Assembly: GCA_016716605.1 (NCBI GenBank)
Contig: JADJWA010000001.1
Span: 2,805,684-2,869,683, forward strand
Source of the DNA: Flavobacteriales bacterium
GTDB lineage: Bacteria > Bacteroidota > Bacteroidia > Flavobacteriales_F > PHOS-HE28
Length of the DNA: 64,000 nucleotides
Direction of reading: 5' to 3'
The position numbers and the translations under genes are program-made. This document shows positions 1-39,845 of this stretch, piece after piece (the first letter of the stretch is position 1; each line of letters opens with the position of its first letter). Under the pieces are notes generated by a model. The model was not told the DNA's origin, made no database searches, and saw only the letters and a list, made by a program, of their open reading frames with translations.

Positions 1-168
1 GGAGGTTGGAAGCGTAGCGTGCTAAAGGAATTGGAGGCTGCCGATGTATACCTCCACCCGACCTATGCTCGGGCCGTGTAAGCACTTAGTTGAATTTGGG
101 AGCTTCCACAGCGCCCGTCACAACGTAACGTCCCAAGGCTTAGAGTGTGCAACTCCTAGAGGATTCCT

Positions 169-993
169 TTGGTGTTGGAACTGCAATCTTTTTCTGATAG
201 ACTTGACAGCACAGGATCGACGGATTTTATGGCAACCACCCCAAAAAAGCGAGTATCAGGTCATGGACGGCGTTTTCTACGGGATGCGTTTATCCATGAT
301 CAAAGTGTGCTACGCGCTGAGCTAGAACGCGCACGATTCAGCATCACGCACCCCACGCGCAAGGGGGAAGTTTCCGAGAAGCATGTTATTGATACCCTGC
401 GACGCTACCTACCCCAGAGGTATTGCGTTGAATCCGCTATCATTATCGACAGTGCGGGGAGAACCAGTGATGCAATCGATGTGGTGATTTTCGATCGCCA
501 TTTTACGCCGACGTTGCTTGACCAAAAGAGTTTTGCCTATGTGCCTGCGGAAGCGGTCTATGCGGTCTTCGAGGTCAAGCAGGACCTCAATGGCCCAATG
601 CTCGCATACGCATCTGAAAAGGCCGCTTCCGTCCGAAGAATGAAGCGAACTTCAGTTGGGTACATGAATGGAGATGTCCCGATGAAGCCCAAACCCCAGA
701 TCGACATCATCGCTGGTATTGTTGCCCTAGAGGCGACACTTACCCTGCAAACGGCGAAGGGGTTGGCAAAGGCATTGCTCCCCCTCGCGGGTGACGGCAT
801 CTTGAATTGCGGTCTGGCGGTGAAAGGTTGCTCCTTCGACACCTTTACTGCTGGGACCATCACGATAAGTAACCAAGAGACGGCCTTGATGCATTTCCTT
901 TTCAGACTGCTAGGACGCCTTCAGATCGTAGGCAGTGTTCCAGCGGTCAATTGGGCTGAGTATGCCAAGGTGCTCACTGTGCGCAAATCATAA
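169..993 (+). CDS. nucC: CBASS effector, NucC-like PD-(D/E)xK endonuclease (alternative start ATG 229)
   Basis: 274-aa ORF with motifs LPQRY, IDVVIFDR...VPAEAVYAVFEVKQ...ASVRRMKRTS that fit a restriction-endonuclease-like D...(D/E)xK core and the NucC-family pattern. It lies 11 nt upstream of the CD-NTase on the same strand. Confidence 0.55.
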   Translation: MVLELQSFSDRLDSTGSTDFMATTPKKRVSGHGRRFLRDAFIHDQSVLRAELERARFSITHPTRKGEVSEKHVIDTLRRYLPQRYCVESAIIIDSAGRTSDAIDVVIFDRHFTPTLLDQKSFAYVPAEAVYAVFEVKQDLNGPMLAYASEKAASVRRMKRTSVGYMNGDVPMKPKPQIDIIAGIVALEATLTLQTAKGLAKALLPLAGDGILNCGLAVKGCSFDTFTAGTITISNQETALMHFLFRLLGRLQIVGSVPAVNWAEYAKVLTVRKS

Positions 994-1004
994 CACTGCC
1001 TCCC

Positions 1005-2039
1005 ATGTTCGACTACGATAAGCAGATTAGGGCATACCAGAATGAGAAAGTCCGCATCTCGGACAACGCCCGTAGGGACTTGCTTGACAAGCGAAAGGCA
1101 AACCGAGATCGCTTGATCGCGAACCTTGGGGGCACGTATACCCTCGGGGAGAACCATTTCATTCCGCAAGGGTCGGTTACTATCTGGACCGCTATTCAAG
1201 CCGCTGATATGAACTACGACATTGATGATGGCGTCTGGTTCCATGCGTCTGAACTTATCGTCAAGGAGGGGAGCGGCGAACGAGAGCTTGTGCCGATCGA
1301 GCTACAACGAATTGTTTGCCATGCCTTGCAGGATGCCCGATTCAAGAAGCAGCCAGAGGTTCATCACAATTGCGTTCGTGTGTTCTACAATGAAGGGCAC
1401 CATGTTGACGTCCCTTGCTTCCGCTGGACGAACGATGGAACGACCTCTGGGAAGCTTGAACTGGCGGCGACAGGAAATAAATGGAGATTGTCCGATCCTA
1501 CTCAAATCAACAACTGGTTCAACGGTAGGGTTGAAGCACTGAACCTGCTGCGCTCGGACGCTGGTAAACAACTTCGACGTCTTGTTCGCTTGTTGAAGCG
1601 CTTTGCGACAAGTCGCGGGGATGCGTGGGACATGCCCAGTGGTTTGAAGCTGATGATGCTGGCCGAAGAGTGTCTCAACCATTCCTTCGAGCGAGATGAT
1701 GAAGCGTTCCACATCTTGCTCAAGAACCTGCGCGTTCGACTTTCGACTTCGTTGGTGGTGCTCAATCGAGCACAACAGATGCCGCAGGATCCTTTGACCA
1801 AAGGACTTGACGATGGCAACATGCAGCAGCTCAGACTCCATGTTGGTGAGGCGCTTGATCACTTGGCCATCACTGACAATCCCCAGTGCAACAAGAAATC
1901 TGCGAGAGAGGCTTGGGATTGGGTGTTCCAGTCTGATGCGTTCTTCGACGATTTTGACAGCGGTGACGATTCAGGTTCCATCGCTTCCTCTGCACCGAAT
2001 AAGCCCTTTGAGAAAGCTACGGCTACGAGGTGGGCGTAG
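1005..2039 (+). CDS. cGAS/DncV-like nucleotidyltransferase (CD-NTase) of CBASS
   Basis: N-terminal long helix, then QGSVTIWTAIQAADMNYDIDDGV (GS...[DE]h[DE]h nucleotidyltransferase motif) and a downstream HHVDVP third acidic residue. The C-terminus ends in Ala. The gene overlaps the Cap2 start. Confidence 0.7.
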   Translation: MFDYDKQIRAYQNEKVRISDNARRDLLDKRKANRDRLIANLGGTYTLGENHFIPQGSVTIWTAIQAADMNYDIDDGVWFHASELIVKEGSGERELVPIELQRIVCHALQDARFKKQPEVHHNCVRVFYNEGHHVDVPCFRWTNDGTTSGKLELAATGNKWRLSDPTQINNWFNGRVEALNLLRSDAGKQLRRLVRLLKRFATSRGDAWDMPSGLKLMMLAEECLNHSFERDDEAFHILLKNLRVRLSTSLVVLNRAQQMPQDPLTKGLDDGNMQQLRLHVGEALDHLAITDNPQCNKKSAREAWDWVFQSDAFFDDFDSGDDSGSIASSAPNKPFEKATATRWA

Positions 2040-3751
2040 TGACTAGTCCTTCACGGGCCAAACATGAACATGCATCGGCAAGGGTTGCTGATTGGATATC
2101 CGATGCCCATATTGATGCACGCGCACTAAGACTTCCTTCGTACTCCCGTGCGTGGGAACTTGAGCTTGAGGTAGGTGCTACTCGTGTTGCGGTTTATCTG
2201 TGCCTGCCAGAAGACTTTCCCGTTCAAGATCCTGTCGTTCTCGTTAAGAATGCTGAGGAGTTCTGGGGGAAGGTGCCTCACGTCGAGCATAGCGGCAAGC
2301 TCTGTCTCAGTTCGACCAACACCGTTCACGGTGTAGAGCATGCCGTTCCATTGGTAGAAAGTGCTCTTTCCGATGCCCGTGGTCTTCTTGCCAACGCCTC
2401 TCCGCGCGACTTTGCTGAGGAGTTCAACAGCTACTGGCCTTCTTCCGATCCTAAGCCTCCCGATGCGGTGATGCTTTGCCGCAATGGGCTGCCAGAAGAC
2501 CCGTGGTGCCGTAAGAACAATCGAGAGATCGTTCTGGGAGATGACAAGGACAGTGTGGATAGTTGGTGCAACAACACGGGGCGCACTTTTGACGAGGCTA
2601 CACAGACCTATCGGATCGACATCGACAAAGAGATGTTGCCCGTGGATTTCCCCCGCGACCTCAAGGGCTTGCACGCTTTGCTCCTTGACAAGGACCCAGC
2701 GTTATCCACGAAGCTGAGGCGAAACGTTAGGAGAAGCAAGGAATACCTCGTCCTTCCTCTTCGGGTTGTTGTTGCAGGAGAGATGAAGGACGCGGTGATA
2801 GGTGTACAGGGCGCGGCTGATTCTCTTCCGAGGAAGGGTGGGTTCAGAACAACGCAAACAGTTCCTTGGACCCTGATTGAACAACGCTCGCCGCAAATCC
2901 AACGGATTTTGCTGCGTCCTGTAACCCCACAAGCAGTGATCACTAGATCGGGCGATGGCTTTGACTTGTCCGATAAGAAGGTCGTGCTTGTTGGCTGCGG
3001 CTCGCTTGGAGGATACTTGGCTCAGATGCTGGCTAGAGCAAGCGTGGGACAACTGACGCTTGTTGATGACGATGCACTTGGCTGGCAGAATACTGGACGA
3101 CATGTTCTTGGCGCCGCCCATATCGGCAAAAACAAAGCGGTGGCTCTGAAGGCAACACTTGGTGTAGAGAACCCGCAAGTGAAGCTGGTGGCAATACCCA
3201 AAAAAGTGGAGTTAGTTCTGAGGGATCGACCTGAGGTACTGAAAGACGCGGACATTGTTATTTCGGCGACGGGTGATTGGCCAGTGGAGTATGCCTTGAA
3301 CTACTGGCGTACATACACCAGTGGTGCACCTCCATTGCTGTTTACTTGGCTCGAACCCCATGCTGTTGCTGGCCACTCGTTCCATGTCGCTCCCGCACAG
3401 GGGGGGTGCCTGAATTGCTATTTCTCCGCAAGCGGACATTTTTCCCAAGCGGTTGTCGATCCGAGCGGCGTTGAGCCCCACAAGGAGGCTAGTTGCGCTG
3501 GCTTCTATCAGCCCTACGGTGCAACTGACATGCTTCCTACGGTCGCACTGGCAGCGGCACATGCTGTGGACGTGTTGCTTGGTAGAGAACGGACTTCGAC
3601 GCTTCGCACCTGGACAGGTGCTCAATCGCGTTTTGAACTGCATGCCTTGTCACCAACTGAGGAGTGGGTGGAACGCTTGGCCGTTGCATCTTTCGGCTGT
3701 GTTCATGAACGCACGATGCCTCCGATTGAAACGTGCGGGCTATGTTTCTAG
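2030..3751 (+). CDS. cap2: Cap2 (E2-like N-terminus plus E1/ThiF-like adenylation domain) CBASS regulator
   Basis: 573 aa. The N-terminal part has HVEHSGKLCLSS (E2-like Cys). The central part has VVLVGCGSLGGYLAQMLARASVGQLTLVDDD (ThiF/MoeB Rossmann GxGxxG) plus Cys-rich segment CLNCY...EASCAGFYQPYG. The gene overlaps the CD-NTase end and the Cap3 start. Confidence 0.8.
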   Translation: MGVVTSPSRAKHEHASARVADWISDAHIDARALRLPSYSRAWELELEVGATRVAVYLCLPEDFPVQDPVVLVKNAEEFWGKVPHVEHSGKLCLSSTNTVHGVEHAVPLVESALSDARGLLANASPRDFAEEFNSYWPSSDPKPPDAVMLCRNGLPEDPWCRKNNREIVLGDDKDSVDSWCNNTGRTFDEATQTYRIDIDKEMLPVDFPRDLKGLHALLLDKDPALSTKLRRNVRRSKEYLVLPLRVVVAGEMKDAVIGVQGAADSLPRKGGFRTTQTVPWTLIEQRSPQIQRILLRPVTPQAVITRSGDGFDLSDKKVVLVGCGSLGGYLAQMLARASVGQLTLVDDDALGWQNTGRHVLGAAHIGKNKAVALKATLGVENPQVKLVAIPKKVELVLRDRPEVLKDADIVISATGDWPVEYALNYWRTYTSGAPPLLFTWLEPHAVAGHSFHVAPAQGGCLNCYFSASGHFSQAVVDPSGVEPHKEASCAGFYQPYGATDMLPTVALAAAHAVDVLLGRERTSTLRTWTGAQSRFELHALSPTEEWVERLAVASFGCVHERTMPPIETCGLCF

Positions 3752-4254
3752 GTAAGAAAGCCCTCAAGAACGCGCCATTGCAGGACTTCGCTCTGCCGAA
3801 CCGTACGGTCCTCCGTTTCACGCCAGAAGTTGTAGGAGTGCTCTCGAAATTTGGCCAAGCAAAGGCGAACTCGAAGGAGGCAGGCGGAATGTTGTTCGCA
3901 AGGTTCGCAGATGGTCTTATTAGCGTTGATTATGTGACTACACCTTCACCCTTCGACTTTAGATCCCGCTTTGCCTTCCGTCCATCCCTTGCTCACCAAC
4001 GGGACGTGATCATGAAACAGTTCAGCAAAGGACTCCACTTTATTGGTGAGTGGCATACTCATCCACAGGAACAACCTCATCCATCGCAACAGGACATACT
4101 TACCGCAAGAGCATGCTTGGTCGAATCCGAGCACGAATTGAACGCCTTTGTTGTTGTAGTCCTCGGCTCCAATGCCGCGATCGCAAATGCTTGGGTCGGA
4201 ATTGTGCGTGAAGAGGATGTTCAACGCCTTCAGGCAATTGCCCGAACGAAGTGA
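3733..4254 (+). CDS. cap3: Cap3 JAB/JAMM-family isopeptidase
   Basis: 173 aa with EWHTHPQEQPHPSQQD, matching the JAMM motif HxHx7Sx2D, and an upstream Glu (EAGGMLFARF). It overlaps the Cap2 stop by 19 nt. Confidence 0.8.
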   Translation: MRAMFLGKKALKNAPLQDFALPNRTVLRFTPEVVGVLSKFGQAKANSKEAGGMLFARFADGLISVDYVTTPSPFDFRSRFAFRPSLAHQRDVIMKQFSKGLHFIGEWHTHPQEQPHPSQQDILTARACLVESEHELNAFVVVVLGSNAAIANAWVGIVREEDVQRLQAIARTK

Positions 4255-4275
4255 ACGTGTCGGATCGCCAATCAG

Positions 4276-5310
4276 TTATAGCATGTGCGCTATAGGGGCT
4301 CGGACAAGCAACTCATGACAAGCCAAAAGCTGACTGGTCATAAAGCTCTCATCGAATGTGCCATCCTCTCCTTGTGCCATGAATGGTTCATCCAGAACAG
4401 CGTAGCGCGAAGACTTTCCACCGATTCGAGCCCACTTCGGATAAAGTATGCGCTTACCCATGGAACTGGCGGCTGCCTGAAGTGAGTTGAAGGTTCCTTT
4501 CATGAAGGCGGGGCCCACAAAGTCATTCTTAGGGGCTGCAATACGAAACGTCAATGCTGGCGGCCTTGAGCGGTAGGCATCGACTTGTAAGTATGTGCAC
4601 CAATCCTCTGGTTCCCCCACCCAGCCGATCCAGAAGCCAATGAAATTGCCCAAGTGGACGTATCCGTAGCCAGCGCTCAGGGTCGCGAGAACAGGTTGTC
4701 GCGCCATGTGATCAAAGCAACCGTACCACTGGTCATCCTTCCACTCGCGCACAGGGAGCGAGCGGAATCGCTCATGCGCCAGATGTGCCTCAGTGCGCAT
4801 CTCGCACCAGGAGTGGAATACTTCGCTTTGAACGCCTGATTTGTCAAGCGATGAAATAAAGTCCACGATGTCGGTCAGATACAACCGCAAGTGCCCATCG
4901 CTCTTTCTAGGCTCTAACGAGGACTTAAAATAAACAGGCAGGACGCGCGATGGGTCCTCGATGTATTCCTTCTCCTTCAATGAACGGAGGTAGCCGTTGA
5001 TCTGCTCCGAATGATCGCTGGTGTAGGTCTTGTCTTCAATGAGCAGATGATGCACTTCACCATCTGGTGTGGTGAGCTTCACCAACACGTCAATGTGCAG
5101 GTACTGAAGCCTGACCTCGGCCTTGTTGTAATTGGGTAATGACCATCCTTTCTTCGCATACAACCACGCGATGAAAGCCCTCCCAACCGCATGCATTCCA
5201 CTTGGGTGGTAGGTATGGGCTTCGTCAGCCCATTCGCAAAGCCACGCCAAGAACGCATCTTGGCTCAGTTCGCTTGTTGCATGACGGAAGATGTTCGGCT
5301 CGCTCTTCAT
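4276..5310 (-). CDS. PD-(D/E)xK nuclease family protein, Rpn/YhgA-like
   Basis: 344 aa. The N-terminus has HATSELSQDAFLAWL, then IDVLVKL...HHLLIEDKT (D...ExK core). It is convergent on Cap3 with a 22-nt gap. Confidence 0.5.
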   Translation of the reverse strand: MKSEPNIFRHATSELSQDAFLAWLCEWADEAHTYHPSGMHAVGRAFIAWLYAKKGWSLPNYNKAEVRLQYLHIDVLVKLTTPDGEVHHLLIEDKTYTSDHSEQINGYLRSLKEKEYIEDPSRVLPVYFKSSLEPRKSDGHLRLYLTDIVDFISSLDKSGVQSEVFHSWCEMRTEAHLAHERFRSLPVREWKDDQWYGCFDHMARQPVLATLSAGYGYVHLGNFIGFWIGWVGEPEDWCTYLQVDAYRSRPPALTFRIAAPKNDFVGPAFMKGTFNSLQAAASSMGKRILYPKWARIGGKSSRYAVLDEPFMAQGEDGTFDESFMTSQLLACHELLVRAPIAHML

Positions 5311-5338
5311 CGTGTATCCTCAACGGTTTCATGCTCCG

Positions 5339-6826
5339 TCAGCGCCAACCCAGCGTGCCTCCGCACAACCACCACGTTCTACCGAAGTCCATGTCACGTA
5401 GAACTTGCGCGGCTTGTGCTGATCGACCGCCGCCCTTGGCGCATACAGTAACGATGCGTTCGCGTCGTGACCAGTCATGAGCGTGTTGCAAAAGGCGCTC
5501 AATGGGGATGTTCATTGCTTGGGGTAGGTGGCCATTGGCATACTCCTCGGGCGAACGAACGTCCACGATACGTACGTCAGGTCTACCAAGCCAGCGTTTC
5601 AGGTCGAGCGGTTCCAAGCAACGCCGCTCCGCAGGCATCCGCAACCAGACGATTACGCCAGAGAGCACCGTGACACCACCGATGGACAGTATCGAGGCCG
5701 ACAACCCGAAGCGATCGGCGATGAGGCCCGTAAGGAGCGCACCGATCGCATAGCCCAGATCACGCCAGAGACGGAAGATGCCGAGGCTTTCGGCGCGTTG
5801 TGTCGGATGTGTATGCGCGGCAATGGTGGCGAGGAAGGTGGGGTACACCAATGCGGTGCCAAGCCCCAGCGCAGCGCTCAGCATGATGTACGCGCTCTGC
5901 GTTCCGATGTATGGCAGCAGGAGAATGGCTGTTCCTTGCAGCACCATACCCACCACGAGCATGAACTTGCGATCGACGTGATCGGCGAGCTTGCCAGTGG
6001 CCAACTGGCCCAGACCCCAAACGGCAGGATAGACCGCAGCTATCGCACCGATGCCTTGGGCATCATACCCTTTGTTGTCAAGCAACACAGGCAGCAGCCC
6101 CCAAAGCATGCCGTCGTTCAGGTTGTTCACCAAGCCCGCTTGTGTCACAGTGCCCAGCACACGATGTCGCAAGCTCGTGTCCATGAAGGGCCGTTCCAAT
6201 AATGGCACAACGCTCTTGGCCGATTCGACGCTCACATGCTGCGTTGTGTCCTTCACCCACATCACCGAAAGGAGCAGCCCGATCACCGCTACGCCAATTC
6301 CAACCTCAAAGGGCAATGGCCGTGGTCCATAGTTCGCGGCCAGCAGCCCTGTGAGGAAGGCCATGGCTGCCACGGCGAGGTAGCCCGCGAATTCGTTCAA
6401 GCCCATGGCCAAGCCACGGTCCTTCTCGCCCACGAGGTCCATCTTCATGACCACGGTACTGCTCCACGCGAACCCTTGGTGGATACCTAGCAGGATGTTC
6501 GCCGCAACGACCCAATGCCATGTTTGCGCATAGATGAGCATGAGGGGCACAGGCAACGCGAGCAGCCATCCCGTTACGAGTAAGCGCTTACGTCCGAAAC
6601 GGCGGGCCAGTCGTCCCGTGAAGTAGTTCGCGGCTGCCTTGGAAACGCCGAAGGCCATGATGAACGAAAGTGCCGCTGCATATGACGCAATGCCGAACTC
6701 CTGTTCTGCGAGAATGGGAAGCACGGTGCGTTCCAACCCGACCATGGCACCGACGAACGCGTTCACGACGACAAGCAGGCTGAACTGTCGCCAGTTCGCA
6801 CGGAGGCCCAGCACAGGAGGGTTCAT
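5339..6826 (-). CDS. MFS transporter with C-terminal rhodanese domain
   Basis: About 12 predicted TM helices typical of MFS. The C-terminal ~100 aa are rhodanese-like (VDVRSPEEYANGHLPQAMNIP...CAKGGGRSAQAA active-site Cys loop). Confidence 0.7.
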   Translation of the reverse strand: MNPPVLGLRANWRQFSLLVVVNAFVGAMVGLERTVLPILAEQEFGIASYAAALSFIMAFGVSKAAANYFTGRLARRFGRKRLLVTGWLLALPVPLMLIYAQTWHWVVAANILLGIHQGFAWSSTVVMKMDLVGEKDRGLAMGLNEFAGYLAVAAMAFLTGLLAANYGPRPLPFEVGIGVAVIGLLLSVMWVKDTTQHVSVESAKSVVPLLERPFMDTSLRHRVLGTVTQAGLVNNLNDGMLWGLLPVLLDNKGYDAQGIGAIAAVYPAVWGLGQLATGKLADHVDRKFMLVVGMVLQGTAILLLPYIGTQSAYIMLSAALGLGTALVYPTFLATIAAHTHPTQRAESLGIFRLWRDLGYAIGALLTGLIADRFGLSASILSIGGVTVLSGVIVWLRMPAERRCLEPLDLKRWLGRPDVRIVDVRSPEEYANGHLPQAMNIPIERLLQHAHDWSRRERIVTVCAKGGGRSAQAAQVLRDMDFGRTWWLCGGTLGWR

Positions 6827-6832
6827 CGTTGT

Positions 6833-7453
6833 TCAGTGTTTTGTCGGCCCGAGCAATAGCACGCGCTCCTGCTTCACGGGTGGGGACCAGTGCAGGTCGA
6901 AGCGCTCGGCGTACTTCTCCAAGGGTTCCAACCGCACGGCGGCGCGGCGTTCGTTCACATGCTCCTCATCCTCGATGGGCTGGATGTAGGGTTTGTTGTC
7001 CTTCCACCCGATCTGTGAGCCGTAGATCTGGAGTTGGCCGTGATTCACCCTGACACGGTCTTCCAACAGCGCCAGTTCCCATGAGTTTGCTTTGCCTTCC
7101 CGCACTGCATCGCGCATGAGCGGAAGGTACTGCGCTTGTATCTCAGGCTTCGCGTCCGCATGCTGGATCACCAAGAACAGTGCTTGGTTGGCCTTCTGGC
7201 CGATCACATCCGCGCCCAGCCAGCCCGCGCTGTCGATGATAGCGGTAACGCGAATGAGGTTCAATGAATCGTGAAGGATCATGTGAGCGACCACGCTGTC
7301 CTTTTGCGCTCCGAGGAAGCCGCCTACGTTATGGCGGTCGTTCTGGTCGAGGTCATGGATGCGTTCCAATTGGATGCGTAGCCCCTCCGCACCACTTTGG
7401 GCGTTGGCCGATGCGCTGGCGATGAGGGTGGTGATGAGGAGTAGGGGGCGCAT
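6833..7453 (-). CDS. secreted hypothetical protein
   Basis: Signal peptide MRPLLLITTLIASASANAQ. No recognisable catalytic motifs. The start is chosen at the internal Met of ORF 6833..7480. Confidence 0.45.
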   Translation of the reverse strand: MRPLLLITTLIASASANAQSGAEGLRIQLERIHDLDQNDRHNVGGFLGAQKDSVVAHMILHDSLNLIRVTAIIDSAGWLGADVIGQKANQALFLVIQHADAKPEIQAQYLPLMRDAVREGKANSWELALLEDRVRVNHGQLQIYGSQIGWKDNKPYIQPIEDEEHVNERRAAVRLEPLEKYAERFDLHWSPPVKQERVLLLGPTKH

Positions 7454-7502
7454 ATTGTTCAAAGGAACGAACGGCAGCATTGATTGTGATGTTCGCTATT
7501 TG

Positions 7503-9392: not shown

Positions 9393-9404
9393 ATCAGGTG
9401 CGGT

Positions 9405-10595: not shown

Positions 10596-10614
10596 GATGG
10601 TTCGTTTGAAGGGC

Positions 10615-13600: not shown

Positions 13601-14925
13601 GAACTTGTTCCGATCACCTCCTTGTCCATTTCGTTGCGCGATAGTGTCTTGTTGGCATAGCTCGCATGCAGAAGGAAGAGCGTGCTTTCAACTACGATCA
13701 CTGCTCCGTCCACGATCAGGCCGAAGTCCAAAGCGCCCATGCTCATGAGGTTGGCGCTAACCCCGAATAGGCTCATGAGGCTGATGGCGAAGAGCATGGA
13801 CAACGGGATCACCGATGCCACGATCAATCCCGCTCTAATTTGGCCTAGCATCAGGACTAGGATCCCGATCACGATCGCGGCTCCGATCAACAGGTTCTCC
13901 TCGACAGTCCCGATGGTACGTGAGATAAGTCTGGATCGATCAACGAAGACGTCCACGCGCACGCCTTCGGGCAGGCTTTGCTGGATCTGCTCTATGCGCT
14001 CCTTCACTCTACCGATCACTTCCATGGCGTTCTCGCCCTTGGTCATGAGCACGACGCCGCCAACGGTTTCACCCTCGCCATTGCGTGTGAGCACACCAAA
14101 TCGCGGGGCATAACCGAACTGGACCTTTGCCACGTCGCGAATACGGACGGGCACACCACGGCTGCTACGTATGCTGAGGTCGGCGATCTGGTCCAACGAG
14201 GTCAACAGACCTTCGGATCGGATGTAGTAAAGGCCTGCGCCTTTCTCGATATAACTGCCACCCGTATTGGCATTGTTCGCTGATAGAGCATCGTACACAT
14301 CCAGCAACGTGAGGTCCATGCTGGCCAAACGCACTGGATCAACGGCTATCTCGTACTGTTTCAGTTTGCCACCGAAGCTGCTCACGTCCACCACACCCTG
14401 TACGCCCAGCAATTGTCGCCGAACGATCCAGTCTTGGATGGTGCGCAACTCCATGATGTCATATTGATCCCGATGAGTGCTGTCGATGGCAAGCGTGTAC
14501 TGGAAGATCTCGCCAAGACCCGTAGTAGGAGGGAGCATACTCGGCCTGCCGTATTCTAGAGGGATGTCCTCCTCTGCCAGTTTTAGCCGTTCGGCAACCC
14601 ATTGACGGGTGAGAGGAACAGGCATGTCGTCCTCGAAAACGATCGTAATCACGGACAGCCCGCTTCGACTGATGCTTCGGAGTTCGACCAATCCTTGCAG
14701 GTTCTTGAATTGAAGTTCCAGTGGATAGGTGATGAACTTCTCCACCTCCTGCGTGGCGAGATTCGGTGCGGTGGTGATCACCTGCACTTGGTTGTTCGTC
14801 ACGTCGGGTAATGCGTCGATGGGTAGGTGGGCGGCGCTGTAGACGCCCCAACCGACCATCGCGAGCAGGAGAAGCCCCGTGATCAGCTTGTTGGTCACGG
14901 AGAAGTGAATGATGCGATCAAGCAT
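10615..14925 (-). CDS. CzcA-family heavy-metal RND pump fused in frame to a TolC-like outer membrane factor
   Basis: The first ~1040 aa are CzcA-like (MLDRIIHFSV..., 12 TM, large periplasmic loops) and end in ...LYKRYGSG. With no stop or ATG, the frame continues into RKKKIRPPQLGAVVAFLALISVGGEAKAQ (signal-peptide-like) and ~410 aa of OMF (TolC/CzcC-like) sequence. The start is chosen at MLDRII (the ORF extends to 14997). Confidence 0.7.
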   Translation of the reverse strand: MLDRIIHFSVTNKLITGLLLLAMVGWGVYSAAHLPIDALPDVTNNQVQVITTAPNLATQEVEKFITYPLELQFKNLQGLVELRSISRSGLSVITIVFEDDMPVPLTRQWVAERLKLAEEDIPLEYGRPSMLPPTTGLGEIFQYTLAIDSTHRDQYDIMELRTIQDWIVRRQLLGVQGVVDVSSFGGKLKQYEIAVDPVRLASMDLTLLDVYDALSANNANTGGSYIEKGAGLYYIRSEGLLTSLDQIADLSIRSSRGVPVRIRDVAKVQFGYAPRFGVLTRNGEGETVGGVVLMTKGENAMEVIGRVKERIEQIQQSLPEGVRVDVFVDRSRLISRTIGTVEENLLIGAAIVIGILVLMLGQIRAGLIVASVIPLSMLFAISLMSLFGVSANLMSMGALDFGLIVDGAVIVVESTLFLLHASYANKTLSRNEMDKEVIGTSSRIMRSAVFGQVIILIVYVPIFALTGIEGKMFKPMALTVSFAIIGALLLSLTYVPLMSSLFLDRKVKAHETFSDRLVSRLHRMVEPLLKQALKRTGVVIAASIALLVGAFMVFNSLGGEFIPELDEGDFAINYTIRQGSSLQHTMRVGQQLESILVKEFPEVVEVVSKVGSSEIPTDPMPIESADLIVVLKDHDEWTTAHNKEDLAEKMEEKMSAIPGVNLSFEQPIQMRFNELIAGVKSDLAIKIYGDDLDLLFKKGNEVAALVSTVDGAQDVKVEQITGMPQLVVRPDRTRLAQYGVTVEELNRILNTALAGGKAGIVYEGERRFDLVVRLANYRDADADKVKDIRIPLPNGSQVPISDVAKVEFLSAPAQVSRDNGERRIVVEANVRGRDIQSVAMDISQTLNDKLDLPSGYYIEYGGTFKNLQEAKARLGVALPVALLLILLLLFLAFGSIREALIIFSAVPLAAVGGVLALWIRGMSFSISAGIGFIALFGVAVLNGIVLISYFNREEEEGDTDITHRILRGVKERLRPVLATAAVASLGFLPMAFNTSIGSEVQRPLATVVIGGLITCTLLTLFVLPVLYKRYGSGRKKKIRPPQLGAVVAFLALISVGGEAKAQTPSLTLEQAVSLALQEHPLVNAAYGVVEREQALKGNAFMLEPLDVQYQRGQINTSVDDYNLQVSTGIASPNVIAQRSATLRQRIALAQSRAALTEAQVRREVSLAYVGLQAAEQQAATYAKLDSIYSDLSRYAERNVQVGESPPVEGLSAQARWQQVKLDRSRADANVYAAKALLQAWIGAATDPSVGALIALPEPILDTALISANPELSALNEEVKLSEAELKLQRNSWAPALRFGAFNQSLDLVTPFWGWMVGASFPLFKTGRGNTTRAVEIDTRIAADQRDAADRSITAQVASEMQEYMQRKREASYYRDQGAALADALLNNATKLYQSGAIGYFEYVQTVDQAYRLYVGQSDALLALNSSILQLNYLTGR

Positions 14926-15030
14926 GCGGAATGCGTGAATGGGAATGAGAACCTGAGAGAAAAGGACAACGCGCGGAACGCACGTCTGCATGGCCACAAT
15001 AGGCCACGCGAAAGGGCCGAGGCCCTTAAC

Positions 15031-15336
15031 TCAAGCTTGGGGAGGTTGCCACACGGGAATGCGCGGCATTGAAAGCACGAATGCAGTGCCGTCATTATAG
15101 GCCAGTGAGCCTACTGGTGGCACGCGAGGCGAATGATCGATCACGACCAAAGTGACGCCTGCGCAACATGTGCATGTGCAGAACGGGCTGCACAAGTCCA
15201 TGTGCTCATGCTGGTCCCCCTCGGTTTGAACTGCGCACGTCTCGTGGTTTGCTACCTGAGCGTCAGTGCAAGGTTGAACGCTGAGGGCGAATACATAGAG
15301 GGCAAGGATGATGCAGAACCAGCGCATGGGTGGCAA
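15031..15336 (-). CDS. small secreted Cys/His-rich protein (putative metal-binding)
   Basis: 101 aa with a signal peptide, then HETCAVQTEGDQHEHMDLCSPFCTCTCCAG. It lies directly upstream of, and co-oriented with, the czc-like operon. Confidence 0.4.
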   Translation of the reverse strand: MPPMRWFCIILALYVFALSVQPCTDAQVANHETCAVQTEGDQHEHMDLCSPFCTCTCCAGVTLVVIDHSPRVPPVGSLAYNDGTAFVLSMPRIPVWQPPQA

Positions 15337-15348
15337 AGCTATGCAACG

Positions 15349-15780
15349 TCAGTTCAGCAGGAAACGTTCGTTATTCCTTCGTAGATGGCGCTCGAAAAGA
15401 CTGCTGATCCAGAAGTAGTGCGCGGTCACGGCGTGCAACCGTTGAGCATCCACCACTCCTTCAATGGCCACCTCATATGTGGCCAAGGGAGTGCGCAACT
15501 GACCATTATGCTGAGAAAGGTGCGCGAATAGGTCGATCAGGACCGCCTCGCCGAACATGGCTCCTTCGGCGGTGACAAGGATGCACTTGTCCCTTCTATT
15601 GTGAGCAAAGAGGTAGTTGTAGGTCAGTGCTGACATCCTGAGTGCGACCTCGGCTGGATAGTAGCGCGTCAATAGCATGCGAATGCCGCGTCGCAGGTCT
15701 TGGATATGCCCGCCACGCTTCGATGCGAAGACTAGTGACACATTTGAAGGCCGAGGTCGGAAGGGGTCATGTAGGTCCAT
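15349..15780 (-). CDS. hypothetical protein
   Basis: 143-aa ORF co-oriented in the island. No recognisable motif. Confidence 0.35.
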   Translation of the reverse strand: MDLHDPFRPRPSNVSLVFASKRGGHIQDLRRGIRMLLTRYYPAEVALRMSALTYNYLFAHNRRDKCILVTAEGAMFGEAVLIDLFAHLSQHNGQLRTPLATYEVAIEGVVDAQRLHAVTAHYFWISSLFERHLRRNNERFLLN

Positions 15781-15834
15781 GCAAAGGGTCGGGAGGGAAT
15801 TGGAAGCCCCCCCATATATGGGCGAATCGCAGCC

Positions 15835-16317
15835 TCACCACAAGCGATGGACACCAGCAGCATGCTCTGGTTCTTTTTGAAGGGGCGCACCCGCCGTCTG
15901 CCCCTTATGGGCAACGGGCGGGGCACCCCCTCCTGTTTGATATTCTTCCTTCATCAGGTAGCATCTGGCGTTCACATCCTTGCCGAGGTAGAAGCACAGG
16001 CCCTCTGCACCCCAGACAGGAGTGATCTTGACATTCAATCCCTTTTCTCGCAGTTCGTCCGCAATACGCTCGACCTCCTTCTTCTCTTTCGCCATGAGCC
16101 AATGCACATGCGCCCGATCTATCACTGCGCTACCTCTTTGTTGCATTCTTTCTACTACGATCACGCCGTCGTGTGGGATGGTGGCTGCCATTTTCACAAC
16201 ATCCTGGCATAGCTGTTCTGCACCTTCATCGGTACATGGATTCGCTGTTATCATGTAGCCTCCGTTCACGAGGAGGCCACCTAGATCTCTTACTGTACTG
16301 CGGTCAATCTGTTTCAT
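15835..16317 (-). CDS. hypothetical protein
   Basis: 160-aa ORF co-oriented in the island. No recognisable motif. Confidence 0.35.
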   Translation of the reverse strand: MKQIDRSTVRDLGGLLVNGGYMITANPCTDEGAEQLCQDVVKMAATIPHDGVIVVERMQQRGSAVIDRAHVHWLMAKEKKEVERIADELREKGLNVKITPVWGAEGLCFYLGKDVNARCYLMKEEYQTGGGAPPVAHKGQTAGAPLQKEPEHAAGVHRLW

Positions 16318-16519
16318 GCTACTTGCTTTTGGGTTAGTTGGACATACGAAGACTTCTGGAGGCTTGGCCTCATCAACTTTGTGGGGAGTGTCCCACTACG
16401 ACAACGGCGATCTCGAACAGGGTGGAAGTGCAAATGCGTGGGCGACTTCGCAGGGAAATCGAGGGCATTCCAACCCTTGCAATAGGGCGGCAGGGCGGCA
16501 TGCGCTGGTACGATCGGAA

Positions 16520-16987
16520 TCACTCAGGCGGTCGCTTCGGAGGCGATTCCGTAGTTCTCTCGCTCTTTGACTTTTCGCGCTCCCGTTCTTTCCTTCTGCG
16601 GTACATCGCCACGGCTGTACGCACAGTTCCCGATGGCAGCATCAGGAATTCATCCAACGCGGCCTTGCTGAAGCGGTAATGCTCACCCTTCAGGGCATCG
16701 GGATTTACAGGCTTGACGAGGCGGGCACCAACGTAGTCGCGAAATGTCCGTTCGCTCACCGCTATGTAGCTCCACGCCTCACAGCTAGAGTGGAGCTTAC
16801 CGTACTTCGGTGTTGGTGTTTCGACCTTTTTATGGAGGTCTGCGACTTGTTGGCGAAGTGCGGATATTTCCTGCACTTCCATGGCGTCGCGTGCCATGTC
16901 AAGAGCAAGGGCATGTATGCGCTTTGCTCGTGTGGGGGGTAACTTGCTTAAAGCAGTTGATAGCTCATCTATGTCCCATGCTGACAT
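16520..16987 (-). CDS. excisionase/AlpA-like helix-turn-helix DNA-binding protein
   Basis: SERTFRDYVGARLVKPVNPDALKGEHYRFSKAALDEFL resembles the HTH_17/excisionase-type domain that accompanies Bacteroidota integrases. The tail is basic (RRRKEREREKSK). It is adjacent to the integrase. Confidence 0.5.
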   Translation of the reverse strand: MSAWDIDELSTALSKLPPTRAKRIHALALDMARDAMEVQEISALRQQVADLHKKVETPTPKYGKLHSSCEAWSYIAVSERTFRDYVGARLVKPVNPDALKGEHYRFSKAALDEFLMLPSGTVRTAVAMYRRRKEREREKSKSERTTESPPKRPPE

Positions 16988-17193
16988 CCATTAGGCCCGA
17001 TCACTTGTATGTGCCCTTGTCCTAGAAGCGCCAACTAGGTTCCCCTCTTCTTCGGCGCTCAACGCAAAACTAAGTGCATGAAGTTGGTCGTGCCAACTCG
17101 ATTATTCCACAGGACATGTCGAAATGTTGAGAAAAACCCAAGGTCTAAGTACCGATCGTTCACGCTTTTCTATGTACGCGCGGGAACAACATG

Positions 17194-18712
17194 TCACGCC
17201 CTTCTGCGCTCTGGTTCACGAAAGCGCACGTTGATTAAGTCGATGCCAGGAAACACTTCATCCGCCATGGCCATCGCTTGGATGACCAGCAGTTCCGCCT
17301 TCTTTTCCAAGGGGCGATTCAAATACGCGCGATCAGCGGACTTGTCGGGTAGTTTATGACCCATCATCTGGCACACAAGGTCGCGGGCAATACCCATGTC
17401 CTCCTCAGCCCATTGCTTGGTCGTGCGCCTGAAATCATGACTGGATAAAACCGAGTGTAGAGGCAGGGAGTTTTGTTCTTTTTTGCTCTTTTTCCCACGG
17501 ACCTTTACCTCGATTTGGTCGTACAGCCTGTTGAAACCCATGGCCAGAGCAACCTCCTTGATGTGGCGGTTGTGCGTCTGGTCGTCGGGAGGCATTACAG
17601 GCCGCACGCCTTTCAGAACGTCCAGCGCTGGGGTGAACAACGGGATGACCATCTCGTTCATCGGGGGCTTTGTGCGGACCATTCGGATGGCTGTAAAATC
17701 GAAGGTCTTGCCTTTGAACCATTGAATGTCTTTTGTGAGCACCTGCCGCAAGTCCGTTATGTCCACCCCCGTGAAACCCTGAAGAACCATCAACTGGCGG
17801 CAGTTCTCCAAGTGTGGCTTGTCCAGCTTCGTCAGGACTAGATGGGAAAGCTCTTCAGCGGTCAAGTAGGGCTTGACCGTGTGCTCCCGACTGGCCGATA
17901 CGAACGAAGTTGTGTCTATGGACTTGATCCGTTTGTTTTCGATGGCATGGTTCAGAGTCGTCTTTATCTGCTGCTGGTACTTCTCCAACGTGTTGACCGA
18001 GTACCGAGATGGCTGTTCGTCCACGGCCCATTTCCACGCGTCGGTACTTTTCATGTCCTTGGGGTCGGCGTAGGGGAGATATTCAGTGGATCGGGCTATG
18101 AGGTTGCTAAAATCGGTCCAGTCCAAAGGGGTGAAATTTCCGAGCATGACCTCTCCTTCGCCCTTGATCCAGCCGAACAGCGGGTGGGTCTTATCCTTGG
18201 CCATGGATCGGATGACTGGCAACATGTCCAAGAGCGCTGCGGTGGTTGAGTACTTCTGTCTCGTCCGAATGTTGTTGCAGAAGTTTGGATCAGCGATGAT
18301 CTCACGGATGTAGTCCGCCAGTGGGATGGGGGTGATCTGCTCAGTATCGACCTTCAGGCGGGCGAGTATCTGGTCGGGGTGTGGCTTTCCCCCCAGTTCC
18401 TTGCTGAGGGCCTTGAATGTATTCCAGACCTCCGCCCTCAGTTCAGCAACACCTTCCGTAATCTGGACCAGTTGGTCCTTCTTTTTCTTCATGAAGGAGC
18501 CGCTGAATGCCTGCTCCGTCATGTCCCACTCGCTTGCATCCACGGCATGTCCCGTTGTCACCCTTAGGGTGAGGTATTGGGGGGACCTTCCAACCTCCAT
18601 TGCACGAAAGCCATAGTTGAATGCTAGCAGGAGGTGGATCCGCCCCTGAACGTATCGCCCAACCAACCTGATGGAGGCGGGGCCGTAGGTCTTCTTGTAT
18701 GTCTTGCCCATG
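17194..18712 (-). CDS. tyrosine site-specific integrase (Bacteroidota type)
   Basis: The C-terminal catalytic region has HDFRRTTKQWAEE (HxxR), MGHK and DRAYLNRP (catalytic Tyr). The N-terminal start is uncertain. The ORF is open to 19002, but a plausible Met lies at 18712 (MGKTYKK...). Confidence 0.75.
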
Positions 18713-18918
18713 GTATATGGTGTTAGTTTCACCGCAACGTTCCGATGAGCCCGATGCTGGCCCCAAATCCAACATTGCTCCAAAATCCGCTCAAAGACCC
18801 TCTTCCCGAACCCTTCTGAAGTGCCCGTCCAACTTTGCATTCCCCCAGCACTGGCGAGGCGTTGGTACCCATGCAGACCACTGCATCGCCATGCAAACCG
18901 TCGCGTCCCCCGCGCTAC

Positions 18919-18955
18919 AAGGCCATCCCCGAAAGGCGGATGGCCTTTTGCTTTT
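18919..18955 (+). other. GC-rich hairpin with T-tract at the island/backbone junction
   Basis: aaggccatcc-ccgaaaggc-ggatggcctt followed by ttgcttttc. It lies 11 nt upstream of the next + strand gene and about 200 nt upstream of the integrase N-terminus. Confidence 0.35.
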
Positions 18956-18965
18956 CTTCGCAGGC

Positions 18966-19379
18966 ATGCGCGCGCTCCTCTACGTGCTGTTGCTCTCTTC
19001 ATGCGGGGTTGGCTTCAGGCCCTCCGATGAGGCCTCGATCCGATCACTGATGGCTGAACAGGAAGCGGCCTGGGACCGTGGTGACATCCCCGGCTTCATG
19101 ACGGCCTATTCCGATAGCATCTGCTTCCACAGCCCCAGGGGCAATACCTGCGGCAAGCAGCAGGTCATGGAGAACTACATGCGCTCTTACCCCACGCCGG
19201 AGCACATGGGCGATCTGCAATTCGGAATCCACGAGGTGGTGCCCGCTGGCGCGGACCATGCCTGGCTTTCGGGTACTTGGGCGCTGCACCGCCAGGCAGA
19301 TACCTTGAAAGGGGCCTTCGCGCTGCTCTGGGCGAGGCAGCCGGAGGGCTGGAGGATCATCAGGGACCACACGTATTGA
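18966..19379 (+). CDS. lipoprotein, SnoaL-like/DUF4440 (NTF2 fold) family
   Basis: The N-terminus LLLSSCGV is a lipobox. The motif AEQEAAWDRGDIPGFMTAYSD...GWRI is typical of NTF2-like DUF4440. The start is the internal ATG of ORF 18699..19379. Confidence 0.5.
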   Translation: MRALLYVLLLSSCGVGFRPSDEASIRSLMAEQEAAWDRGDIPGFMTAYSDSICFHSPRGNTCGKQQVMENYMRSYPTPEHMGDLQFGIHEVVPAGADHAWLSGTWALHRQADTLKGAFALLWARQPEGWRIIRDHTY

Positions 19380-39407: not shown

Positions 39408-39701
39408 CGATTCGGGGCTTTGAGGATCAAGGTGGCACTTCAGAATTCTCGATGGCAGCTACGGGCTCGGCCGACCAAAGATGGGACGTGCATTCCGACC
39501 ACGGCTGCCCGGTGATGTCTGGCGACACCTTCTTGGTGCCATGGCCCTCTCTCGCGGGCCGCTCACGACGAGCCCTTTCATCGTACTGCCCTTGATCCGC
39601 TTGGCACTGCCTGAATCAGCCTGCTCATTGCGGCGGCCATGCGCGATCCGTGGGAACATGAAAAAGCCCCGCCGCTGCGCGGCGAGGCTTTGATCATCAA
39701 G

Positions 39702-39785
39702 TGCCCAGGACTGGACTCGAACCAGCACACCCTTTCGGGCGCTACCACCTCAAAGTAGTGCGTCTACCAATTTCGCCACCTGGGC
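39702..39785 (-). tRNA. tRNA-Leu (anticodon GAG), type II with long variable arm
   Basis: Reverse complement is GCCCAGGTGGCGAAATTGGTAGACGCACTACTTTGAGGTGGTAGCGCCCGAAAGGGTGTGCTGGTTCGAGTCCAGTCCTGGGCA. The 7-bp acceptor stem pairs, the anticodon loop is TTGAGGT, and the T-loop is TTCGAGT. Confidence 0.85.
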
Positions 39786-39845
39786 AGTCTCGAAAGAACA
39801 TGAGGCTCATGAGCGTTGCTCTCCGCTCATTCACCCGAAATCCAG

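What the first reader, a model, noticed from the sequence alone, without database searches (positions are those of the whole stretch)
1..18960. Integrase-bounded island combining phage defence (CBASS) and heavy-metal resistance cargo
A tyrosine integrase (17194 to 18712) and an excisionase-like HTH gene (16520 to 16987) sit at the right end. Everything to their left (czcA-OMF, czcB, P1B-ATPase, MFS-rhodanese, Rpn-like nuclease, CBASS) has GC visibly lower than the very GC-rich DNA starting at about 18.96 kb. No tRNA lies at the junction. A GC hairpin marks the boundary. The left end is outside the window.
Basis: partly seen in the sequence, partly recalled or inferred. Interest (0 to 1): 0.55.

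Follow-up and report, generated by a model that had tools for sequence, protein, structure and literature searches.

The report
Genomic island inserted in tRNA-Met
This is a real but fairly ordinary mobile genomic island of roughly 39-41 kb, inserted into the end of a tRNA-Met gene of an uncultured sludge Flavobacteriales bacterium, carrying copper and zinc/cadmium resistance and anti-phage genes, and ending in an unusually divergent integrase.

Summary
The island is real. Window 1-18905 has lower GC than the flank (0.557 against 0.628) and a different tetranucleotide usage. It is absent from the same locus in all the related Flavobacteriales MAG loci examined. There, tRNA-Met(CAT), its terminator hairpin, a DUF4440 lipoprotein gene, rhomboid and an aminotransferase gene lie in one block.

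The junction holds the last 13 nt of tRNA-Met (18906-18918). The "GC hairpin" is the tRNA's own chromosomal terminator. So this is a classic insertion into a tRNA 3' end.

The island runs at least 17 kb beyond the window's left edge. That stretch holds a copper module and TIR, HEPN and CoiA-like genes. Protein accession order puts about 34 genes between the conserved flanks. The attL junction itself could not be read.

The 505-aa "integrase" has no Pfam or NCBIfam hit and is annotated as hypothetical. It does match PHROG integrase profiles, it folds like full-length lambda integrase, and it keeps Lys, His, Arg, His and Tyr. It has Asp at the canonical Arg-I position.

The CBASS is a complete type II system with a NucC effector. 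No conjugation genes were seen. The same metal backbone occurs elsewhere with other defence genes. The verdict is a new member of a known kind, of modest interest.

The parts
1..18905 (.). Right-hand 18.9 kb of the genomic island. The island continues at least 17,075 bp to the left of the window.
   Evidence: Low GC and deviant tetranucleotide usage. Absent from the same locus in related genomes. L001 and L091 extend it leftward at 100% identity over the overlap compared (window 1-6446).
229..993 (+). CBASS effector, a NucC-type endonuclease (Pfam DUF6602).
   Evidence: PADLOC Effector/NucC at E=8.2e-79. DUF6602 at E=6.6e-30. Start codon taken from the gene call in L001.
1005..2039 (+). CD-NTase (CBASS cyclase).
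   Evidence: DncV-like NTase. NF041078 cGAS at E=2.8e-33, below its curated cut-off. PADLOC cyclase at E=3.3e-87.
2030..3751 (+). Cap2 (E2 and E1/ThiF domains).
   Evidence: ThiF plus Prok-E2_B. PADLOC E1-E2 at E=2.2e-115.
3733..4254 (+). Cap3 (JAB deubiquitinase-like).
   Evidence: Prok-JAB. PADLOC JAB at E=3.7e-44.
4276..5310 (-). 344-aa protein of unknown function. It may be PD-(D/E)XK-like; it is not demonstrably Rpn-like.
   Evidence: PDDEXK_4 at E=6.8e-4, below its cut-off. PADLOC PDC-S26 at E=2.3e-6.
5339..6826 (-). MFS transporter fused to a rhodanese domain.
   Evidence: MFS_1 plus Rhodanese. A relative is also present in the related island L092.
6833..7480 (-). DUF6624 protein.
7503..9392 (-). 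P1B-type heavy-metal ATPase of the Zn/Cd/Pb class (MBK9148401).
   Evidence: TIGR01525 at 556.6 bits (cut-off 346) and TIGR01512 at 479.7 bits. Accession.
9405..10595 (-). Membrane-fusion protein (CzcB/CusB-like).
   Evidence: HlyD_D23 and HlyD_3.
10615..14997 (-). CzcA/CusA-family HME-RND permease fused in frame to an outer-membrane-factor domain (1460 aa).
   Evidence: TIGR00914 at 1132 bits (cut-off 701) and OEP at residues 1289-1459. The linker resembles a signal peptide.
15031..15336 (-). DUF6660 protein.
15349..16317 (-). Two ORFs of unknown function (143 aa at 15349-15780 and 160 aa at 15835-16317).
   Evidence: No Pfam, NCBIfam or PHROG hit.
16520..16987 (-). 155-aa protein with a weak HTH_17-like motif, directly downstream of the integrase. 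It is a candidate recombination directionality factor or regulator.
   Evidence: HTH_17 at E=4.5e-4, 20.9 bits against a cut-off of 27. No similarity to the HTH_17 protein of element E430.
17194..18711 (-). Divergent three-domain tyrosine integrase of 505 aa (MBK9148407, annotated as a hypothetical protein).
   Evidence: PHROG_1 integrase at E=1.2e-13. No Pfam or NCBIfam hit. Invariant K348, H425, R428 and Y463. AlphaFold2 pLDDT 87. Foldseek top hits are lambda Int, Tn1549 Int and XerH at probability 1.0.
18712..18905 (.). Island arm (the P arm of attR) between the integrase start codon and the att core.
   Evidence: Homology to relatives starts only at 18906. The inner roughly 100 nt are conserved with the upstream region of the 67% relative in L090; this was judged by eye, with no alignment run.
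18906..18918 (+). att core, the last 13 nt of tRNA-Met(CAT). This is the attR remnant.
   Evidence: Alignment A1. It is the only exact copy in the window, and chance predicts 0.09 matches allowing one mismatch.
18919..18958 (+). Chromosomal terminator hairpin and T-run of tRNA-Met. This is outside the island.
   Evidence: A hairpin plus T-run occupies this position in all 8 aligned relatives; only the GGCC stem ends and the T-run are sequence-conserved. Terminator-like by scan.
18966..19379 (+). Chromosomal DUF4440 lipoprotein gene, the first core gene to the right of the island.
   Evidence: Syntenic in about 73 of the 80 related loci. DUF4440 was assigned to the orthologue in L088. The lipobox LSSC was read from the sequence.

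Best explanation
Window 1-18905 is the right half of a genomic island of roughly 39-41 kb with about 34 genes. The island integrated by site-specific recombination into the 3' end of the chromosomal tRNA-Met(CAT) gene of an uncultured high-GC Flavobacteriales bacterium. The source contig is 3.66 Mb, with locus-tag prefix IPM12.

Proposed mechanism:
- A lambda-Int-like tyrosine integrase of 505 aa is encoded 194 bp inside the right end.
- It recombined a short core in the circular element (attP) with the identical 13-nt 3' end of tRNA-Met (attB).
- This left the displaced tRNA 3' fragment plus the tRNA terminator at the right junction (attR).
- A tRNA-Met gene should have been re-formed at the far left junction (attL).

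Cargo:
- a copper module (two multicopper oxidases, T9SS-tailed proteins, HMA proteins, a P-type ATPase, an AraC regulator);
- a Zn/Cd/Co-type module (CzcA-OMF, CzcB, a P1B ATPase, MFS-rhodanese);
- between them a defence block: a type II CBASS with a NucC effector, a TIR protein, a HEPN/AbiU2 protein and a CoiA-like nuclease.

No conjugation or mobilisation gene is recognisable. It is therefore a non-self-transmissible island, or at best a mobilisable one.

Shown: the insertion, the junction, the composition difference, the recombinase fold and residues, the cargo identities, and horizontal sharing of the backbone.
Inferred: that this integrase did the integration, that attL restores the tRNA, that the HTH protein controls directionality, and that the element can still excise.

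The confidence of 0.8 is for 'a site-specifically integrated island in tRNA-Met'. For the narrower step, that the 505-aa protein is the integrase responsible, I put about 0.6.
For: Insertion:
- The right-flank block is conserved in about 73 of 80 related loci. None of them has island genes.
- tRNA-Met lies directly upstream of the hairpin and lipoprotein gene in every relative checked. It is within 200 bp in 44 of 67 loci.
- The left-flank genes of relatives are not in the window.

Junction:
- Homology to relatives starts exactly at the 13-nt tRNA 3' end, 18906-18918.

Left side:
- L093 comes from the same sample as the 100%-identical contig L001/L091. It carries the source's exact LptF/G, the Lys-rich gene and the first 30 nt of tRNA-Met.
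- Protein accessions run in order: LptF/G ...372, multicopper oxidase ...378, T9SS protein ...386, CD-NTase ...395, ATPase ...401, integrase ...407, rhomboid ...409.

Mobility:
- The copper backbone is 80-88% identical in amino acids (82% in nucleotides) to L092. That genome's core aminotransferase is only 59% identical.
- Copies about 93.5% identical in nucleotides occur on dozens of contigs from other samples.

Integrase.

The same architecture occurs elsewhere:
- L058 and L065 have an 8.14-kb element in the same tRNA-Met with 51-nt direct repeats. Its integrase ends about 60 bp from attR.
- In L102, p486 is a 32%-identical full-length relative of this integrase. It sits 215 bp from a tRNA-like att core.

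Cargo.
Against: - attL was never read. The last 2.8-4 kb on the left, including two genes (...374 and ...375), are unknown.
- In the roughly 93%-identical copies from other samples, the island's left arm abuts a different tRNA-like core (CCCTACGGGCTACCA) and other integrases. The source's left end cannot be inferred from them.
- The integrase has Asp (D317) at the canonical Arg-I position, so its activity is unproven.
- No arm-type repeat is shared between its arm and the left arm of the related copies.
- Only a 13-nt core is visible, which is short compared with the 51-nt repeats in L058.
- No excised form or empty site was found within the same species.
Confidence: 0.8

Rival explanations
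1. The island was integrated by a different, canonical integrase encoded at or near its unseen left end, next to the intact tRNA. That is the commoner layout. The 505-aa protein would then be an inactive relic or an accessory recombinase.
For: - D317 replaces the canonical Arg-I.
- Two unidentified genes (...374 and ...375) lie next to tRNA-Met in the source.
- In the roughly 93%-identical copies, canonical integrases of 430 and 434 aa lie just beyond the island's left arm.
Against: - In those copies the canonical integrases belong to separate stacked elements. Each is bounded by its own copies of the core and carries its own arm repeats.
- All four elements examined here have the integrase at the attR-proximal end, 60-215 bp from the core: the window's island, E430, the p486 element, and the L058/L065 element.
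- All other catalytic residues of the 505-aa family are invariant.
- CTnDOT-type integrases are active without the canonical Arg-I (PMC8138268).
Confidence: 0.2
2. The region is not one element. It is a tandem array of two or more islands (a metal island plus a defence island) built up by accretion at tRNA-Met.
For: - Stacking at tRNA-like cores is seen directly in L102.
- GC differs between the defence block (about 0.52) and the metal modules (0.56-0.60).
- L092 has the same metal backbone with different defence genes.
Against: - In the 36 kb that could be read there is no internal forward-strand copy of the 13-nt core, even allowing 2 mismatches.
- There is only one recombinase in that stretch.
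- The defence genes sit between two metal modules that are also linked in L092. This fits a variable cargo slot better than separate elements.
Confidence: 0.1
3. The block is ancestral DNA that was deleted in the relatives, or it is a prophage or a conjugative element.
For: None beyond the presence of an integrase. A PHROG integrase profile matches.
Against: - All 67 related loci that hold a tRNA-Met upstream of the right flank, spanning 55-93% core identity, have a whole tRNA-Met there. A deletion model would need many precise, independent deletions.
- The composition differs from the flank.
- No phage structural genes were found, and there is no match in IMG/VR.
- No relaxase, coupling protein or T4SS domain is among the genes scanned.
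Confidence: 0.03

Closest known systems
tRNA-targeting integrative elements of Bacteroidota, such as NBU1 (IntCTnDOT subgroup of tyrosine recombinases)
   Same: - A Bacteroidota host.
- Site-specific insertion into the 3' end of a tRNA gene, leaving a short duplicated core.
- A three-domain (arm-binding, core-binding, catalytic) tyrosine integrase at one end.
- No conjugation machinery of its own.
- The IntCTnDOT subgroup is noted for weak conservation of the first catalytic Arg (PMC8138268). That NBU1 targets tRNA-Leu is from my own knowledge.
   Different: - The integrase is not recognised by Pfam Phage_integrase, Arm-DNA-bind_5 or SAM_5.
- It is 505 aa rather than about 400-440 aa.
- No relaxase, primase or oriT module was identified.
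- The cargo of about 34 genes is far larger than that of an NBU-type element.
CTnDOT integrase IntDOT
   Same: It lacks Arg at the canonical Arg-I position but keeps the rest of the pentad and the Tyr. IntDOT is active nevertheless (PMC8138268, citing Kim et al. 2010).
   Different: - No detectable sequence similarity was established here.
- CTnDOT is conjugative and not tRNA-specific (my own knowledge).
- The compensating Arg in the 505-aa family was not identified. The invariant R305 is the '-12' Arg, and the canonical integrase int430 compared here also has an Arg there.
Metal-resistance and defence cargo on chromosomally integrated elements, such as ICEclc-family elements in Pseudomonas, and surveys of defence systems on integrated elements
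   Same: One integrated element carries heavy-metal resistance together with anti-phage systems, CBASS included. The accessory regions vary within a conserved backbone. Both papers (PMC10732049 and PMC10201445) were seen only as search listings and were not read.
   Different: - A different phylum and a different integrase family.
- No conjugation module here.
- The metal modules use Bacteroidota-specific features: T9SS-sorted multicopper oxidases and a CzcA-OMF fusion.
Site-specific accretion (tandem stacking) of integrative elements at tRNA genes
   Same: L102 shows three elements stacked head to tail, separated by copies of one 15-bp tRNA-like core. Each has its own integrase about 190-215 bp from the core. 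The concept is reviewed in PMC5704250 and PMC5812530, which I saw only as search listings and did not read.
   Different: In the window's own genome only one element is evident between the flanks. Stacking was seen only in other samples.

Membership tests
tRNA-integrated genomic island (tyrosine-recombinase type) | Present in one genome and absent from the same locus in relatives (an empty site exists). | tested here: met
   tRNA-Met, hairpin and lipoprotein gene are contiguous in relatives, with no island genes.
tRNA-integrated genomic island (tyrosine-recombinase type) | A displaced 3' fragment of the target tRNA at the distal junction (attR). | tested here: met
   A 13-nt exact tRNA-Met 3' end at 18906-18918, followed by the tRNA's own terminator.
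tRNA-integrated genomic island (tyrosine-recombinase type) | An intact tRNA with the matching direct repeat at the other junction (attL). | tested here: inconclusive
   Only the first 30 nt of tRNA-Met, next to the left flank, were recovered (L093). Gene order comes from accessions. Look-ups and scans were exhausted.
tRNA-integrated genomic island (tyrosine-recombinase type) | An integrase gene close to one end. | tested here: met
   The start codon is 194 bp from the core.
tRNA-integrated genomic island (tyrosine-recombinase type) | Composition deviates from the host chromosome. | tested here: met
tRNA-integrated genomic island (tyrosine-recombinase type) | Excision to a circular form (attP and attB detectable). 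| not testable with these tools
   This needs raw reads or PCR.
Tyrosine recombinase (lambda-Int type, AB-CB-CAT) | A catalytic-domain fold plus core-binding and arm-binding domains. | tested here: met
   AlphaFold2 pLDDT 87.3. Foldseek hit to full-length lambda Int 1z1b at E=5e-6 and probability 1.0, over 438 aligned columns.
Tyrosine recombinase (lambda-Int type, AB-CB-CAT) | The Lys, His-I, Arg-II, His-II and nucleophile Tyr residues. | tested here: met
   K348, H425, R428 and Y463 are invariant, and H452 is conserved in at least 90% of 21 family members.
Tyrosine recombinase (lambda-Int type, AB-CB-CAT) | Arg-I at the canonical TG-x-R position. | tested here: not met
   D317 in this protein, Ala or Pro in its closest relatives, and Arg in more distant members.
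Tyrosine recombinase (lambda-Int type, AB-CB-CAT) | A match to the curated family model (Pfam PF00589). | tested here: not met
   No hit even at E<=10. There is also no PDB hit by sequence or by profile. PHROG_1 does match.
Integrative and conjugative element (ICE) | A relaxase, a coupling protein and a T4SS. | tested here: not met
   None was found among the genes of the 36 kb read plus the proxy left end. Several small ORFs remain unassigned.
Type II CBASS | A CD-NTase, Cap2 (E1/E2), Cap3 (JAB) and an effector in one operon. | tested here: met
   The effector is NucC-type.
HME-RND (Czc/Cus) efflux system | A CzcA/CusA-family permease above its curated cut-off, with an adjacent membrane-fusion protein and an OMF. 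| tested here: met
   TIGR00914 at 1132 bits against 701. HlyD_D23 membrane-fusion protein. An OEP domain fused to the permease.
Prophage | Capsid, tail or terminase genes. | tested here: not met
   Five island proteins were scanned against PHROGs; only integrase profiles matched significantly. No relative was found in IMG/VR.

The most novel reading that the evidence does not exclude
The 505-aa protein founds a small, so far unannotated clade of lambda-Int-like tyrosine integrases. Only 16 cluster representatives at E<=1e-30 were found among 1.84 billion proteins.

Its closest members have lost the canonical Arg-I (Asp, Ala or Pro instead). They may nevertheless catalyse tRNA 3'-end integration, which would imply an active site completed in a different way from the classical RKHRH-Y arrangement.
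Probability: 0.35. Interest if true: 0.45.

Novelty: new member of a known kind. Interest (0 to 1): 0.3.

Why it matters
- It shows that metal-resistance and anti-phage genes travel together on a tRNA-targeting island in uncultured Flavobacteriales. The closest relatives are MAGs whose isolate names suggest activated-sludge studies; that habitat is my inference, not a tested result.
- The same copper backbone recurs in distant hosts with swapped defence genes. This is a concrete case of a variable defence slot inside a conserved cargo backbone.
- The practical lesson is for annotation. The island's integrase is invisible to Pfam and NCBIfam and is deposited as 'hypothetical protein'. Island finders that key on integrase models would miss this element.
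- The Asp at the Arg-I position gives a testable question about tyrosine-recombinase catalysis.

Tried and rejected
- Pfam, NCBIfam, and PDB sequence and profile searches on the integrase gave no hit.
- Exact look-ups of the integrase found nothing on record.
- P0002 and L090, the only close relative, is truncated on a chimeric-looking 1.7-kb contig and does not reach att.
- Walking to attL failed in several ways:
  - Logan contigs L082, L083 and L093 all break inside tRNA-Met.
  - The source's own 3.66-Mb contig could not be retrieved.
  - A metagenome scan with the canonical integrase found nothing, and so did a scan with the left-arm DNA.
  - The proxy contigs L097 and L102-L111 lead into other stacked elements rather than into tRNA-Met.
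- I first read the canonical 430-aa integrase as the island's own left-end integrase. I rejected this after finding that it belongs to a separate 5.56-kb element bounded by two copies of a 15-bp core.
- I first read the invariant R305 as a replacement for Arg-I. I rejected this because the canonical integrase int430 has an Arg at the same '-12' position.
- A search for arm-type repeats shared between the window's arm and the related copies' left arm found nothing above chance.
- Rfam found nothing in 1-22000.

Full report
**Observation.** The compositional step is real.
- Per-kb GC is 0.52-0.58 from 1 to 19000 and 0.59-0.66 beyond, with one kb at 0.574.
- Over the part of the island that could be read (36 kb), GC is 0.557, against 0.628 for the 45 kb to the right.
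- The tetranucleotide correlation of 5-kb windows with the right flank is 0.54-0.83 inside the island. It is 0.93-0.97 for the seven windows from 17.9 to 52.9 kb.
- Profile scans confirm the listed genes. These are a CD-NTase, Cap2, Cap3, an MFS-rhodanese fusion, a Zn/Cd-type P1B ATPase, a CzcB-like membrane-fusion protein, and a 1460-aa CzcA permease fused to an outer-membrane-factor domain.
- PADLOC identifies the gene at 229-993 as a NucC-type effector. The CBASS is therefore a complete type II system.
- 'Rpn-like' for 4276-5310 is not supported. 'Excisionase-like' for 16520-16987 rests on a sub-threshold HTH_17 hit.

**The integrase.** The ORF at 17194-19002 has no Pfam or NCBIfam hit.
- Its GC-rich first 97 codons overlap the chromosomal flank, so they are an ORF artefact. 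The deposited protein starts at 18711 (505 aa, MBK9148407, 'hypothetical protein IPM12_11410').
- PHROG integrase profile 1 matches residues 185-474 at E=1.2e-13.
- An exhaustive phmmer search of 1.84 billion representatives gives only 16 hits at E<=1e-30. The weaker hits cover only the catalytic domain.
- In a 21-member family alignment, K348, H425, R428 and Y463 are invariant and H452 is nearly so.
- The canonical Arg-I position is Asp317 here. It is Ala or Pro in the nearest relatives and Arg in more distant members.
- The AlphaFold2 model is confident, with pLDDT 87.3.
- Its best structural matches are full-length lambda integrase, the Tn1549 integrase and XerH, all at probability 1.0.
- It is therefore a three-domain tyrosine integrase from a divergent family. 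Loss of the canonical Arg-I has a precedent in the IntCTnDOT subgroup (PMC8138268).

**The junction and the empty site.** A scan of one genome per species with the flanking aminotransferase returned 80 loci, all from uncultured high-GC Flavobacteriales. The best match is 87% identical in amino acids.
- The lipoprotein-rhomboid-aminotransferase block is syntenic in about 73 of the 80 loci. None has island genes next to it.
- In every relative examined, a tRNA-Met(CAT) gene lies directly upstream of a hairpin and the lipoprotein gene. It is within 200 bp in 44 of 67 loci.
- The alignment shows that the window matches these genomes only from 18906 onward. That stretch runs through TCCCCCGCGCTAC (the last 13 nt of the tRNA), the terminator hairpin, and the lipoprotein gene.
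- The 13-mer has no other exact copy in the window; chance predicts 0.09 matches allowing one mismatch.
- The relatives' left flank (two glycosyltransferases, LptF/G, a Lys-rich protein, then the tRNA) is conserved and absent from the window.

**Extent.** A Logan contig from run SRR11674018 (L001/L091) is 100% identical to window 1-6446. It extends 17,075 bp further left.
- Reading leftward from the window edge, it adds a TIR protein, a HEPN/AbiU2 protein, a CoiA-like nuclease and UbiA.
- Next comes a T9SS-tailed multicopper oxidase, three T9SS-tailed proteins and an AraC regulator.
- At the far left are HMA proteins, a second P-type ATPase and a second multicopper oxidase.
- GC stays at 0.51-0.61 throughout.
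- Protein accessions of the source MAG run in gene order:

| Protein | Accession MBK9148... |
|---|---|
| LptF/G | 372 |
| 104-aa ORF | 376 |
| 118-aa ORF | 377 |
| multicopper oxidase | 378 |
| P-type ATPase | 379 |
| T9SS protein | 386 |
| CD-NTase | 395 |
| P1B ATPase | 401 |
| integrase | 407 |
| rhomboid | 409 |

- About 34 protein genes therefore lie between the flanks. Only two of them (...374 and ...375) are unseen.
- A contig from the same sample carries the source's exact LptF/G, the Lys-rich gene and the first 30 nt of tRNA-Met. It then breaks.
- From the proxy contig L097, the island is estimated at 39-41 kb.
- attL itself was not read.

**Mobility and relatives of the island.**
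- Copies of the copper module about 93.5% identical in nucleotides occur on dozens of contigs from other samples.
- L092 comes from a genome whose core aminotransferase is only 59% identical. It has the same backbone at 80-88% amino-acid identity, but carries GmrSD and other genes where the window has CBASS, TIR and HEPN.
- This argues for horizontal transfer and for a variable defence slot.
- In the 93% copies, the island's left arm abuts a 15-bp tRNA-like core (CCCTACGGGCTACCA).
- Beyond that core lie alternative canonical integrases of 430 or 434 aa.
- In L102 the core occurs twice and brackets a 5.56-kb element that has its own arm-like repeats. The second copy lies 215 bp upstream of p486, a 32%-identical full-length relative of the window's integrase.
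- Independently, L058 and L065 carry an 8.14-kb element in the same tRNA-Met with 51-nt direct repeats. Its canonical integrase ends about 60 bp from attR.
- Thus all four elements seen at these tRNA-type sites place their integrase at the attR end. This supports the 505-aa protein as the window island's own integrase.

**What was not found.**
- No relaxase, coupling protein, T4SS or phage structural gene.
- No Rfam family in 1-22000.
- No relative in IMG/VR.
- No forward-strand internal copy of the att core in the 36 kb read, even allowing 2 mismatches.

**Verdict.**
- It is tRNA-Met-targeted.
- Its boundary is at 18905/18918.
- The hairpin is chromosomal.
- The island is about twice as long as the part seen.

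In kind it is well known. tRNA-integrated islands, metal plus defence cargo on integrated elements, and tandem accretion all appear in the literature (PMC8138268, which I read; PMC5704250, PMC5812530, PMC10201445 and PMC10732049, which I saw only as search listings). The one moderately unusual item is the integrase family. It is undetected by curated models and lacks the canonical Arg-I. Interest is modest.

Noticed in passing
window 10615-14997 (-): The CzcA RND permease is fused in frame to an outer-membrane-factor domain (1460 aa). The linker, at about residues 1052-1085 (GSGRKKKIRPPQLGAVVAFLALISVGGEAKA|QTPS), looks like a retained signal peptide. It could act as a 13th transmembrane segment or as a cleavable signal.
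   Followed up: partly
L058 363-8580 and L065 157-8381: An 8.14-kb integrative element sits in the same tRNA-Met. It is flanked by 51-nt direct repeats (96% identical). It carries a canonical Bacteroidota integrase, a 458-aa unknown protein, a DUF3987 protein and a DUF6371/Zn-ribbon protein.
   Followed up: partly
L102 2695-8266: A 5.56-kb element (int430, a 449-aa protein, an HTH_17 protein and others) is bounded by two copies of CCCTACGGGCTACCA. GGGACAGTTTC repeats lie near both ends. It is stacked between a p486-bearing element and the copper island.
   Followed up: partly
L110 2003-4489: This contig has the same copper-island left arm as L102. Beyond the same 15-bp core it carries a different integrase (434 aa) with different arm-like repeats (GGTTGTCGGTT).
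   Followed up: partly
L092 1-8200: A related metal island in a distant Flavobacteriales MAG carries GmrSD, MerR and other genes in the slot where the window has CBASS, TIR, HEPN and CoiA-like genes.
   Followed up: partly
window 52800-62434: Three large minus-strand ORFs (1341, 916 and 936 aa) lie in a stretch with strong positive GC skew. Its tetranucleotide correlation with the rest of the flank drops to 0.82-0.85.
   Followed up: no
L053, L054, L057, L080, L036, L015: Several relatives have 1.4-1.6 kb of extra DNA between tRNA-Met and the lipoprotein gene (the rhomboid gene in L080). In L036 ARAGORN finds a tRNA-Thr(CGT), not a tRNA-Met, just upstream of the lipoprotein gene. L015 has about 2.1 kb inserted between the lipoprotein and rhomboid genes.
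   Followed up: no
window 39701-39918 (-): tRNA-Leu(GAG) and tRNA-Lys(TTT) are the only complete tRNA genes in the window. No island features were noted next to them.
   Followed up: no
L082, L083, L093 (contig ends): Three independent Logan contigs carrying the left flank all break inside the tRNA-Met gene. This fits the tRNA being a shared or branching sequence in the assembly graphs.
   Followed up: no
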